A stretch of DNA of 64,000 nucleotides, taken from NCBI RefSeq assembly GCF_053078305.1, contig NZ_CP166879.1. The stretch is one strand, 5' to 3'. Position numbers and translations under genes: made by a program. Under the pieces are notes generated by a model. It did no database searches and was not told where the DNA came from. It worked only from the letters and a program-made list of their open reading frames with translations. The stretch's first letter is position 1, and each line of letters starts with the position of its first letter. Positions 22,331 to 24,789 of this stretch are shown here, in pieces.

Positions 22331-22571
22331 GTTATACCGAATGATTACCAGCAATGACATTCACGAGGAGTGATGATTCGGCAGCATTTAAGGGCATATC
22401 AGAAAAAGAGAAGGACATGAAAGAGGAGAGCAATAAAAGACACGGAAAATAAAGAAGAGAGAGAAAATATTTTTTAAAAACAGAAAATTAACAACGCACA
22501 TCAGGAAACGTCGTCTCCTGATTCAGTGATACCACATGAAAATTTAGTGAACGGTTACCGTTCTGAAGTCT

Positions 22572-22781
22572 ATGTCAGAAGATATTCCATTACCAAAAAT
22601 CAATCAGCGATACAGAGACGATCATGGCGCGCTTGTCACCGTGACCAGTGTTGAGGAAACCCGGGTGGTGTTTATGCGGGACGGCTATCCGCATCCCTGC
22701 ATGCGGCCGATGTACAACTTCCTGGGAAAATTCAAACCCGAACCCCGGAAAGAACCCCCTGCCGGCAATCACACTGCCTGA
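22572..22781 (+). CDS. hypothetical small protein
   Basis: 69 aa ORF; no recognised motif. Confidence 0.3.
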   Translation: MSEDIPLPKINQRYRDDHGALVTVTSVEETRVVFMRDGYPHPCMRPMYNFLGKFKPEPRKEPPAGNHTA

Positions 22782-22800
22782 TGGCAGCATAATCCACTTA

Positions 22801-23034
22801 TTAATTCTCATCCCCGGAGACAAGCCCAGAAAACCACTCCGGGTGTTCACTGTATGCCGTGTTCAGCGCATCCCAGGAAACGTTGATATAAAAGCTGTCC
22901 TGCAATTTGCGGGTAACAATTTCTGCCACCCGGTTACGGTTATCCGCCTGTCCGGCATAACCTCTCTCTGCCAGCCACTCATTCAGTTCATGTTCCGGAG
23001 ACAGATTGATAATATCGTAATCGGACCTTGCCAT
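22801..23034 (-). CDS. hypothetical small protein
   Basis: 77 aa ORF, acidic; no recognised motif. Confidence 0.3.
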   Translation of the reverse strand: MARSDYDIINLSPEHELNEWLAERGYAGQADNRNRVAEIVTRKLQDSFYINVSWDALNTAYSEHPEWFSGLVSGDEN

Positions 23035-23122
23035 TCCCGTTTCCTTAGCACATGTTTTCAGGCTCGGGGATAAAGAATGTCGTACTGCTGCTGCCAGAGC
23101 AATATTCCCCCTGATGGTCGAA

Positions 23123-23782
23123 TCAGAGATAGTAGGCCGGTACTTTGCGGGTTGTTCCCGTCAGATTATCATGCACCTCCGCGGTCGTTGTCACCACCGG
23201 CATTCCGCTCTTTCTCAACCTCAGGACATCAGCCGCAATACGCTGACTGCCGAACCAGAACAGGCCGTCCAGTGCAGTCACCAGCAACCCCGCCTCCAGC
23301 GCATGCTTCAGCCGTTCACGGGGCGCTTTCACTTCCCGGGCAATCTGCTGGTATGGCGATGATGTGTTATCATTCCCAATCACCCGGCGAATACGATGAG
23401 ACAGATGATACCGGTATGTATCCGGCACACCGGAAAGGCTGGCCTTCAGGCTGTACACGCAGCCAAAGCGTTTATCGTTGAACACCACATTTTTCTGGCT
23501 GATATCCCATTCTTCACGCAGCGCGGCAATCAGTTGTGGTGTCCGGGTAAGCAACAAGCGAAAAGGCAGTTCAAAACTGGTGACGTAATCCACATTCAGC
23601 AGTGCAATACGCAGCCGTTCTTCCGGCCCGGCCTCTGTCTGCCGGCACTCCTCCAGAACATCCTGCCACTGCTGGTGAAGGCGTGGAAGTTCATTCAGTT
23701 CAGTAAAACTGTATTTATCCGCAAGATAGTCAATTCGTGTACGCATACTGAAAAGAATTCCGTATAAAGATTCAGCTGGCAA
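23123..23782 (-). CDS. hypothetical protein
   Basis: 219 aa ORF; start uncertain (ATG at 23782 or 23746); no family recognised. Confidence 0.35.
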   Translation of the reverse strand: MPAESLYGILFSMRTRIDYLADKYSFTELNELPRLHQQWQDVLEECRQTEAGPEERLRIALLNVDYVTSFELPFRLLLTRTPQLIAALREEWDISQKNVVFNDKRFGCVYSLKASLSGVPDTYRYHLSHRIRRVIGNDNTSSPYQQIAREVKAPRERLKHALEAGLLVTALDGLFWFGSQRIAADVLRLRKSGMPVVTTTAEVHDNLTGTTRKVPAYYL

Positions 23783-23834
23783 AACTTTATCAGTCTGTAA
23801 AAACTAACGGAAGAGTCGATATTTCTCCCGTCCA

Positions 23835-24344
23835 TCACCGGATGATTGTTGCAATACCCCGTGGCATCAGAGACTGAACAGCCGTTTTTAACGCCACGTA
23901 TTGCCCTGATGAACCAGGCCGGGCAACCCGAAAACATCTTTCCACCCGGCATTGTCCGCCAGCACTTATCACCGACCAGGTCTGTTGCAGTAAATCCACC
24001 AGTTGCGCACATTCTTCATCAGCCATGACGCCGACTCGCGGATGGCAAATACTCGTCTGGCTGAGCAGCAACAGACATCGTATCTGTGCTCCTTCATGTT
24101 GTTCCCGCAACCAGCGTAATACCACCGGCGCTGATGGGCTGACCGTGTGATTATGCTCCGTAATACGTTCGTGTACCCGTCGGTGAAAGGAACTACAAAA
24201 TGTCTGAATCTGTTGACCATAGATTCCTTCTGCCGAATAGAGCGTGAAGTGAAATGCCAACAGATTTGGCCAGTGGTCCACCGCCTGCTGAACAAAACGC
24301 CGGATTTCCCCCGGCTCTGAAATTAAGGCTTCGGTTATTTGCAC
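23835..24344 (-). CDS. hypothetical protein
   Basis: 169 aa ORF; weak resemblance to the C-terminal parts of the YagK/YfjJ-like proteins further right; possibly a remnant. Confidence 0.3.
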   Translation of the reverse strand: MQITEALISEPGEIRRFVQQAVDHWPNLLAFHFTLYSAEGIYGQQIQTFCSSFHRRVHERITEHNHTVSPSAPVVLRWLREQHEGAQIRCLLLLSQTSICHPRVGVMADEECAQLVDLLQQTWSVISAGGQCRVERCFRVARPGSSGQYVALKTAVQSLMPRGIATIIR

Positions 24345-24789
24345 GAAATGTTCCTTTTCAACCCCTGTTGAATTTTGTCAAGCCGGTGCAGACACAGTAA
24401 AGCGCGCATCAACACCTGAAAGGTACGATACAAACACAAGTTACAAACAATAAGAACGGAAGGACAATTAATCAGTGAGGAATAATAACTAAATTAACCA
24501 AAAGAATGTTACTGACAATACTACCAATACTTAAATAGCAATATATTAATTAATGTAAGAACAGATGCCCGGTAAGACATATACACAATACATCCACAAA
24601 CACACTCTTTTCATTAAATCAATCACCTGATTAAACCATGAAAGTGTGATGTAAGTCAAAATTACTGACACTATCAATTGATAATGATTATCTCTATCAT
24701 TATCGTGAAATTCGAGAATGAAAGGAGAAGTAGTCATTATAAGCCTTTTATAAATCGTCATCATCATAGTAAAGTAGAACACTTTTTAT

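What the first reader, a model, noticed from the sequence alone, without database searches (positions are those of the whole stretch)
22500..24400. Small module of four unassigned genes bridging the T6SS promoter and the microcin island
The ORFs at 22572, 22801, 23123 and 23835 have host-like composition but no recognisable function. The junction between two antibacterial weapon systems is a plausible place for regulatory or immunity cargo.
Basis: inference. Interest (0 to 1): 0.3.

Follow-up and report, generated by a model that had tools for sequence, protein, structure and literature searches.

The report
Conserved island backbone genes beside T6SS
The four ORFs are real, separate genes of a DNA-binding/regulator-type backbone segment that recurs in the genomic islands of more than half of complete E. 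coli genomes, so the finding is genuine but largely ordinary rather than a new weapon-associated cargo.

Summary
The four ORFs exist exactly where stated and are intact, conserved genes, not fragments of one gene. Three have family assignments. 22572-22781(+) is a short DUF4222/RgdR-family protein. 23123-23746(-) is an ECs1377-family protein with a C-terminal winged helix. 23835-24344(-) is a PF27752 protein, a remote relative of YagK/YfjJ (inovirus Gp2) with a Rep-like fold that lacks their H-Y-H triad. 22801-23034(-) is an acidic 77-aa orphan. DNA similar to the module occurs in 2956 of 5426 complete E. coli genomes (the whole module in 726), often in several copies, including O157 SpLE1. 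It is island backbone, not cargo. An ECs1377 gene followed by a homologous core promoter and tssB also heads this T6SS lineage in Kosakonia. ECs1377 also lies upstream of tssB in Serratia and Citrobacter. The last gene belongs to the alpA-YfjJ backbone. The roughly 13.6-kb microcin island is inserted between that gene and alpA. More than 1200 T6SS-less copies still carry the Fur/Dam-switched sci1 promoter. A DNA-binding or regulatory role is the best inference. An immunity role has no support. Function remains untested and interest is modest.

The parts
22138..22230 (-). sci1-type T6SS promoter (Psci1) carried on module-side DNA. It has -10 TATAAT at 22155-22160, -35 TTGAGA at 22179-22184, GATC sites at 22168 (G2) and 22200 (G3), and a degraded Fur box F1 at about 22142-22160. 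The breakpoint of T6SS-less copies lies at 22138-22154.
   Evidence: Promoter scan gave 11 of 12 matches. The layout matches the published Psci1 architecture (PMC3145626, PMC13262931). The G1 loss and the 11/19 versus 13/19 Fur score are. The core promoter is homologous in Kosakonia.
22500..22563 (.). Two conserved hairpins or palindromes just upstream of the DUF4222 start: a 23-bp palindrome at 22500-22522 and GAACGGTAACCGTTC at 22549-22563. Role unknown (operator, 5'-UTR structure, or terminators for leftward transcription).
   Evidence: The stems are invariant and the centre is variable across five diverged copies.
22572..22781 (+). [not shown]
   Evidence: Pfam PF13973, 80.4 bits against a cut-off of 27. 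PHROG 1343 and 285 hits. 39% identity to RgdR ECs1581 over the core; the RGD motif and basic tail are absent. The literature names 63-aa 'truncates' on OI-43/48/SpLE1.
22801..23034 (-). Gene 2: a 77-aa acidic (pI 4.4) protein of no known family, seen here only in E. coli and E. albertii.
   Evidence: No Pfam, NCBIfam, PHROG, PADLOC, PDB or phage match. Conserved at 92-95% aa identity in diverged copies. dN/dS 0.16-0.51. pI.
23123..23746 (-). Gene 3: a 207-aa ECs1377-family protein with a novel N-terminal domain and a C-terminal phage-type winged helix-turn-helix. The open frame extends to a TTG at 23782.
23835..24344 (-). Gene 4: a 169-aa PF27752/'UCP030791' protein, a remote and probably catalytically dead relative of YagK/YfjJ (inovirus Gp2-like) proteins.
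24345..24482 (-). Upstream region of gene 4. This is the last stretch of backbone DNA before the microcin island. In microcin-less islands it continues directly into the alpA-like gene region.
   Evidence: blastn of L104 and L101 against the window; alignment.
24483..38001 (.). Microcin H47 island, inserted cargo and not part of the module. It begins with a Fur box (24680-24698), a 156-aa membrane ORF (24790-25260) and a CPBP protease gene (25358-26044).
   Evidence: Annotation. Insertion boundaries. The Fur box scores 17/19, the best in the window.
38002..38186 (-). A second, truncated and diverged copy of the 5' end of gene 4 plus its upstream region. It closes the microcin island and leads into the alpA-like HTH gene (38382-38579, minus strand).

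Best explanation
The region holds four independent, intact genes that form a recurrent backbone segment of Escherichia genomic islands. They are not cargo of either weapon. Shown: gene 1 is a short RgdR-family (DUF4222) protein, transcribed divergently from the Fur/Dam-switched sci1 T6SS promoter. Genes 4, 3 and 2 run co-directionally on the minus strand toward that promoter. Gene 4 is a degenerate YagK/YfjJ-like protein with a Rep-like fold. Gene 3 is an ECs1377-family protein with a winged-helix DNA-binding domain. Gene 2 is a 77-aa acidic orphan. Shown by comparison: the order ECs1377 gene, homologous core promoter, tssB also heads this T6SS lineage in Kosakonia, and ECs1377 lies upstream of tssB in Serratia and Citrobacter. 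That part of the module is therefore the ancestral head of the T6SS locus. Gene 4 belongs to the alpA / hypothetical gene / YfjJ island backbone. The roughly 13.6-kb microcin island is an insertion between gene 4 and alpA. More than 1200 E. coli genomes keep the module and the complete sci1 promoter but have lost the T6SS just downstream of the promoter. Inferred: the products act on DNA. The ECs1377 protein would be a sequence-specific DNA-binding factor, and the DUF4222 protein a small transcription modulator like RgdR. Together they would most plausibly tune horizontally acquired operons, the adjacent Psci1-driven operon being the prime candidate. Gene 4 is probably a non-catalytic remnant of an island Rep/nickase-type protein.
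For: Family hits are. RgdR similarity is, and RgdR's regulatory role is documented in PMC3378721 and PMC10877973. The ECs1377 model has pLDDT 93, and only winged-helix domains match it. Purifying selection is shown. DNA similar to the module is in 2956 of 5426 genomes with a median of 2 copies. ECs1377 lies directly upstream of and co-oriented with tssB in Kosakonia and Citrobacter. The same holds in further Kosakonia species and in Serratia oryzae. The core promoter is homologous in Kosakonia. A tssB-promoter-like stretch precedes vgrG in L083. tssB remnants flank copies that have lost the rest of the T6SS, and tssA/vasL fragments lie a few kb to the left of others. The tssB-module junction is intact in 190 genomes, while 1420 carry the DUF4222 and promoter part with sharp breakpoints. 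The promoter elements are retained in T6SS-less copies. Gene 4 is contiguous with alpA and Gp2/YfjJ genes where the microcin genes are absent.
Against: No experiment or expression data here ties any of the four proteins to Psci1 or to any other target. Published work explains Psci1 control by Fur and Dam alone. One strain keeps an intact T6SS cluster with gene 2 stopped, gene 3 frameshifted and gene 4 absent, so the module is not needed to maintain the cluster. Across 79 species loci, ECs1377 homologues mostly sit beside unrelated housekeeping genes. Only 7 have T6SS genes within 10 kb. ECs1377 is retained in T6SS-less Kosakonia species, so its function cannot be strictly T6SS-specific. Gene 1 lacks the RGD motif and the basic tail of RgdR. 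No repeated operator-like motif was found. The gene 4 model is of only moderate confidence (pLDDT 62).
Confidence: 0.6

Rival explanations
1. Decaying hitch-hikers. The genes are relics of old island and T6SS heads with no current function, and persist only because they lie between selected cargo.
For: Pseudogenised copies are common. The DUF4222 gene is frameshifted in L001. Genes 3 and 4 are damaged in ST131 L099. Genes 2 and 3 are damaged in L103. Gene 3 is truncated in L100. Gene 4 has a relaxed dN/dS of 0.35-0.66.
Against: The ECs1377 gene has dN/dS 0.16-0.18 between copies. It is kept full-length at 60-73% aa identity across many Enterobacterales genera in unrelated contexts. The window copies are all intact.
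Confidence: 0.2
2. Island mobility or replication module. Gene 4 (Rep-like fold) and gene 3 (DNA-binding) would work with alpA and the YfjJ/Gp2 genes in excision, nicking or replication of the island.
Against: The H-Y-H triad conserved in the YfjJ alignment is I-R-C in gene 4, and the C-terminal Tyr is Phe in distant members. ECs1377 homologues occur alone, without any island genes, in most genera. No integrase or att site lies nearby in the window.
Confidence: 0.12
3. Immunity or effector cargo of the T6SS or the microcin system.
For: Position between two antibacterial systems. ECs1377-like genes sometimes follow PAAR, or precede orphan hcp or vgrG islands and a tpsBA pair.
Against: There are no defence or immunity family hits. 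No N-terminal signal peptide or membrane span is evident on inspection of the translations. Folds are of nucleic-acid-binding type. No effector gene is adjacent. The module persists where both weapons are absent.
Confidence: 0.04
4. The ORFs are fragments of one disrupted known gene.
For: None found.
Against: They lie on two strands. Each matches a distinct full-length family or is conserved as a stand-alone CDS. ECs1377 homologues exist as single complete genes in other genera.
Confidence: 0.01

Closest known systems
RgdR (ECs1581) of E. coli O157:H7 OI-51/Sp7, DUF4222 family
   Different: Gene 1 is 69 aa, not 99. It lacks the RGD tripeptide (N-Q-R at that position) and the basic C-terminal tail. 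No activity has been tested for this short class. It sits beside a T6SS promoter rather than upstream of a primase gene.
YagK/YfjJ / inovirus Gp2 family proteins of CP4-type islands (PF11726)
   Same: Gene 4 aligns with them profile-to-profile (90.5% probability). It has the same alpha/beta order and a Rep-like fold, and it lies in the same backbone next to alpA-like genes.
   Different: There is no direct Pfam PF11726 hit. It falls in its own family, PF27752. It is shorter, and the H-Y-H triad is replaced by I-R-C, so it is probably non-catalytic.
ECs1377 family (NCBIfam NF052300) / O157 Sakai SpLE1 and EDL933 OI-43/48 segment
   Same: Gene 3 is a clear member (324 bits against a cut-off of 190). 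The whole four-gene block plus the 156-aa ORF and the truncated CPBP gene is collinear with the SpLE1-type island at 91-93% nucleotide identity.
   Different: In the window the block still adjoins an intact T6SS and an intact microcin island. In the SpLE1-type copy, IS elements, a POTRA gene and microcin remnants flank it.
RovC of Yersinia pseudotuberculosis (T6SS4 activator encoded upstream of its cluster)
   Same: This is an analogy only. In both cases a lineage-restricted DNA-binding protein of unusual fold is encoded immediately upstream of a T6SS operon.

Membership tests
DUF4222 (PF13973) | Pfam model score above the gathering threshold over the full domain | tested here: met
   80.4 bits against 27; profile positions 1-52 of 53
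RgdR-type regulators (functional subfamily of DUF4222) | Full-length ~99-aa protein with the RGD tripeptide at residues 20-22, shown to be important for T3SS activation | tested here: not met
   Gene 1 is 69 aa. The aligned position reads N-Q-R and the basic C-terminal tail is absent (PMC3378721)
RgdR-type regulators (functional subfamily of DUF4222) | Demonstrated transcriptional effect (LEE/T3SS activation, motility repression) | not testable with these tools
   Requires expression and reporter assays
ECs1377 family (NF052300, equivalog) | NCBIfam model score above the curated cut-off, full-length match | tested here: met
   324 bits against 190; profile 1-190 of 190
Winged helix-turn-helix DNA-binding proteins | Three-helix bundle plus beta-hairpin wing fold | tested here: met
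   [not shown]
Winged helix-turn-helix DNA-binding proteins | Actual sequence-specific DNA binding | not testable with these tools
   Needs EMSA or ChIP. No candidate repeated operator was found
YagK/YfjJ / inovirus Gp2 (PF11726) | Direct Pfam model match | tested here: not met
   No Pfam hit at E<=0.1 for gene 4. Only profile-profile similarity, 90.5% probability and E 1.4e-6
YagK/YfjJ / inovirus Gp2 (PF11726) | Conserved H-Y-H triad (position of the HUH metal-binding motif of Rep-type nucleases; that interpretation is my own knowledge) | tested here: not met
   H-Y-H in the YfjJ/Gp2 alignment aligns to I-R-C in gene 4
PF27752 ('UCP030791 family putative phage-derived protein') | Membership by model | tested here: inconclusive
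   The model is absent from the local Pfam copy. Homologues at 74-95% identity and a 22%-identical Scandinavium/Citrobacter relative carry a precomputed PF27752. RefSeq names orthologues UCP030791
T6SS or microcin immunity proteins | Adjacency to a cognate effector or toxin gene, and membership of a known immunity family | tested here: not met
   The nearest annotated effector pair, tle1/tli1, is more than 12 kb away. mchI is the annotated H47 immunity gene. No PADLOC, Pfam or NCBIfam immunity hit

The most novel reading that the evidence does not exclude
The ECs1377-family protein, possibly with the acidic 77-aa partner and the short RgdR-like protein, is a dedicated DNA-binding regulator that travels with the Fur/Dam-switched promoter as a portable 'control head'. 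Whatever contact-dependent weapon is recombined downstream of the promoter would come under its control: T6SS-1 in this window and in Kosakonia and Serratia, or a two-partner-secretion operon in Citrobacter and in SpLE1-type islands. This would add an unrecognised layer to the sci1 ON/OFF switch.
Probability: 0.15. Interest if true: 0.6.

Novelty: new member of a known kind. Interest (0 to 1): 0.3.

Why it matters
The result shows that the DNA between two antibacterial weapons in this STEC island is not special cargo. It is a repeated backbone, and that repetition probably supplies the homology by which E. coli islands are shuffled into mosaics. The microcin island here is bracketed by two copies of the 5' region of gene 4. 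It also shows that the well-studied Fur/Dam epigenetic promoter of the sci1 T6SS survives, detached from any T6SS, in more than a thousand genomes including O157. It further shows that a conserved winged-helix gene has headed this T6SS lineage in several genera without ever being tested. If that protein does regulate the promoter, the current Fur/Dam-only model of T6SS heterogeneity would be incomplete.

Tried and rejected
- PADLOC gave no hits for any of the genes.
- Rfam found no RNA family in 21900-25000.
- Sequence searches of solved structures found nothing for genes 1, 2 or 3.
- The repeat search found no iterons or operator arrays.
- A search for a conserved neighbour of ECs1377 homologues across 79 species loci failed. 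No neighbour family occurs in more than 9 loci, and downstream neighbours are mostly unrelated housekeeping genes. I therefore dropped the idea of an obligate partner gene or an obligate T6SS link.
- A search for relics of the tssB promoter downstream of those homologues found only L019, L022 and L083.
- Direct BLASTP of gene 4 against the window's YfjJ/Gp2 proteins was insignificant. Only the profile comparison worked.
- The phage database holds a single ECs1377 homologue (Erwinia phage LS-2018a, after RecT) and none for the 77-aa protein, so a 'typical phage gene' reading was rejected.
- The afdb50 fold library was unavailable.
- The first alignment was too diverse for the search for related loci.

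Full report
**1. Observation**

The window is an E. coli (STEC-type) genomic island. It is 99.4-99.8% identical to chromosomal segments of several complete genomes.

- 22572-22781(+)
- 22801-23034(-)
- 23123-23782(-); the annotated start is ATG 23746, giving 207 aa
- 23835-24344(-)

GC content is 0.49-0.54 over the genes. It falls to 0.32-0.41 in the two AT-rich intergenic regions that bracket them.

To the left lie tssB (21576-22073, minus strand) and a complete sci1-type T6SS with tle1/tli1. To the right lies the microcin H47 island: a 156-aa ORF, a CPBP protease gene, mchF, an HlyD-family secretion gene, mchB, mchI and others.

**2. Identity of each gene**

Gene 1 (69 aa) is a complete DUF4222 domain (Pfam 80.4 bits, cut-off 27). 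The only characterised DUF4222 protein is RgdR (ECs1581), a small prophage-encoded activator of the LEE type III secretion system and repressor of motility (PMC3378721, PMC10877973).
- I fetched ECs1581 from Sakai. Gene 1 is 39% identical to it over the core.
- Gene 1 lacks the RGD tripeptide and the basic C-terminal tail.
- The SpLE1-type copy of this module carries such a 63-aa DUF4222 gene.

Gene 2 (77 aa, pI 4.4) has no match in Pfam, NCBIfam, PHROGs, PADLOC, PDB sequences or phage genomes. I saw it only in E. coli and E. albertii.

Gene 3 is a clear member of NCBIfam NF052300, 'ECs1377 family' (324 bits, cut-off 190).
- Its AlphaFold model is confident (pLDDT 93).
- The N-terminal ~125 residues match nothing. 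Their helix-helix-helix-strand-strand order hints at a second winged-helix-like unit, but that is inference only.
- The family is narrow: 114 representatives at 50% clustering among 1.8 billion proteins.

Gene 4 (169 aa) has homologues carrying the recent Pfam family PF27752, which RefSeq names 'UCP030791 family putative phage-derived protein'.
- A profile-profile comparison with an alignment of YagK/YfjJ/inovirus-Gp2 proteins from the window and related loci gives 90.5% probability (E 1.4e-6).
- In that alignment the conserved H-Y-H of those proteins falls on I-R-C in gene 4.
- To my knowledge that protein is a viral Rep of the HUH superfamily. That interpretation is my own, not a tool result.
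- Gene 4 therefore looks like a non-catalytic offshoot of the island Rep-like family.

**3. Are they real genes?**

Each is conserved as a full-length ORF in copies 8-25% diverged at the DNA level. dN/dS values are:

| Gene | dN/dS |
|---|---|
| Gene 3 (ECs1377) | 0.16-0.18 |
| Gene 1 (DUF4222) | 0.08-0.45 |
| Gene 2 (77 aa) | 0.16-0.51 |
| Gene 4 (PF27752) | 0.35-0.66 |

They lie on two strands and belong to different families, so the 'fragments of one gene' refutation fails.

**4. Distribution**

- DNA similar to 22100-24600 is found in 2956 of 5426 complete E. coli genomes, with a median of two places per genome and up to seven. In 726 genomes one place covers at least 80% of the query.
- Contexts include the O157 SpLE1-type tellurite/iha island, an ST131 microcin/F1C island, an island next to a propanediol-utilisation microcompartment (grp) cluster, and others.
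- The module is therefore backbone, and the weapons are the variable parts.

**5. The left junction**

Homologues of gene 3 at 60-73% identity occur in about 80 Enterobacterales species.

T6SS association across genera:
- In Kosakonia radicincitans, K. sacchari, K. quasisacchari, Serratia oryzae and some Citrobacter, the ECs1377 homologue lies directly upstream of tssB-tssC-tssK-tssL-tagL-hcp-clpV and is co-oriented with it. This is the same gene order as in the window.
- In those loci genes 1, 2 and 4 are absent.
- The core tssB promoter (-35, an internal GATC, -10) is recognisably homologous between E. coli and Kosakonia.

Within E. coli:
- Every detectable tssB of this lineage adjoins the module. 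The junction is intact in 190 genomes.
- 1420 genomes carry the DUF4222 gene plus the promoter-proximal DNA, with sharp shared breakpoints at window 22138-22154.
- These T6SS-less copies keep the -10, the three GATC sites and Fur box F1 of the published sci1 promoter. Some are flanked by tssB, tssA or vasL fragments.
- The module with its promoter is therefore the surviving head of this T6SS lineage.

Limits on the T6SS link:
- Only 7 of 79 species loci have T6SS genes within 10 kb. The other homologues sit next to unrelated housekeeping genes.
- T6SS-less Kosakonia species keep the gene at the same locus.
- One E. coli strain has an intact T6SS with genes 2 and 3 inactivated and gene 4 absent.
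- The historical linkage is strong. A functional dependence is not shown.
- Other suggestive contexts exist: a tpsB/tpsA pair downstream in a Citrobacter strain, orphan hcp and vgrG islands, and a PAAR gene immediately upstream in marine contigs.

**6. The right junction**

- In islands without microcin genes (L005, L101, L104), gene 4 is followed directly by an alpA-like HTH gene, a ~190-aa hypothetical gene and a Gp2/YfjJ gene.
- blastn of those loci against the window shows homology running to window 24416-24482 and resuming at 38106-38161.
- The intervening ~13.6 kb is the microcin island.
- It is bracketed by two diverged copies of the 5' end of gene 4 plus its upstream region (24300-24482 and 37975-38186). 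After that come the alpA-like gene (38382-38579) and YfjJ-type genes.
- The microcin cluster is thus inserted cargo, probably brought in by recombination between repeated backbone copies. The recombination mechanism is inference.

**7. Mechanism**

Shown:
- gene identities and predicted folds;
- gene order, with genes 4, 3 and 2 co-directional toward Psci1 and gene 1 divergent from tssB;
- evolutionary linkage to the T6SS head and to the alpA/YfjJ backbone.

Inferred: the products act on DNA as regulators of horizontally acquired operons, with the neighbouring Psci1-driven operon the most obvious candidate.

Published work accounts for Psci1 control by Fur and Dam alone, and none of the four genes has been tested. 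I put 0.6 on the backbone/regulatory description as a whole. I put about 0.15 on the specific idea that the ECs1377 protein controls Psci1.

Rivals:
- functionless relics (0.2);
- an island mobility module (0.12);
- immunity or effector cargo (0.04);
- fragments of one gene (refuted).

**8. Comparison and novelty**

All assignable genes belong to known but uncharacterised families. The block is collinear with the SpLE1-type island of O157 (the copy fetched is from strain RM6067W), and the family is named after the Sakai gene ECs1377. The finding is a new member of known kinds and modestly interesting.

The by-products are worth recording:
- detached copies of the Fur/Dam switch promoter;
- loss of GATC-I in this lineage;
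- a strong Fur box at the start of the microcin island;
- an unannotated microcin-like ORF.

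Noticed in passing
window 22142-22160: The sci1 promoter of this lineage (window, L001, L003) has lost the GATC-I/G1 Dam site: TTTCACCCATTATAG instead of TTTTGATCATTATAG in all other copies examined. 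Its Fur box F1 drops from 13/19 to 11/19 matches. G1 and F1 are key elements of the published Fur/Dam ON/OFF switch, so T6SS heterogeneity may differ in these STEC strains.
   Followed up: partly
window 24680-24698: The best Fur-box match of the entire 64-kb window (17/19, GATAGAGATAATCATTATC on the minus strand) lies here. It overlaps a predicted plus-strand promoter, 92 bp upstream of the 156-aa membrane ORF (24790-25260) and the CPBP protease gene. The first operon of the microcin island therefore looks iron-regulated, and the module is flanked by outward-facing Fur-controlled promoters on both sides.
   Followed up: partly
window 26656-26979 (+): A 107-aa ORF has a double-glycine-type leader (MRNITTDELALIHGAG) and a Ser-rich tail (...SSTSSSSSGS) resembling class IIb siderophore-microcin precursors. 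RefSeq calls it hypothetical and it has no NCBIfam hit. In ST131 the corresponding position holds mcmA on the other strand.
   Followed up: partly
window 24300-24482 and 37975-38186: The microcin island is bracketed by two diverged direct copies of the 5' end of gene 4 plus its upstream region. Microcin-less islands (L101, L104) join these two points directly. This suggests insertion by recombination between repeated backbone modules.
   Followed up: yes
window 22500-22522 and 22549-22563: A 23-bp palindrome (ATCAGGAAACG-T-CGTCTCCTGAT) has invariant outer stems and a variable centre across diverged copies. A perfect GAACGGTAACCGTTC hairpin follows. Both lie just upstream of the DUF4222 start codon. 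Their role is unknown (operator, 5'-UTR structure, or terminators for leftward read-through).
   Followed up: no
L002 15001-15470, L004 12001-12470, L100 9001-9470: T6SS-less copies of the module, including the O157 SpLE1-type island, retain the full Psci1 promoter (-10, G1-G3, F1). It now faces a POTRA/TpsB-type gene or IS remnants. About 1200 complete genomes carry such detached promoters.
   Followed up: partly
L097 7761-20622; L017/L018; L071; L083: ECs1377-family genes also precede a tpsB-tpsA two-partner secretion pair, with a PF27752 gene upstream, in Citrobacter sp. 18056. They follow a PAAR gene in marine metagenome contigs. They sit upstream of orphan hcp or vgrG islands in Enterobacter. 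This is a recurring but not universal association with contact-dependent weapons.
   Followed up: partly
L105 4986-5633 (Erwinia phage LS-2018a): This is the only phage-database homologue of the ECs1377 protein (48% identity). It lies after a RepL-like / PDDEXK exonuclease / RecT block and before an acetyltransferase gene and the tail-fibre genes.
   Followed up: partly
L103 10175-11126: An E. coli wastewater strain has an intact T6SS-1 cluster although the 77-aa gene has an internal stop, the ECs1377 gene is frameshifted and the PF27752 gene is missing.
   Followed up: no
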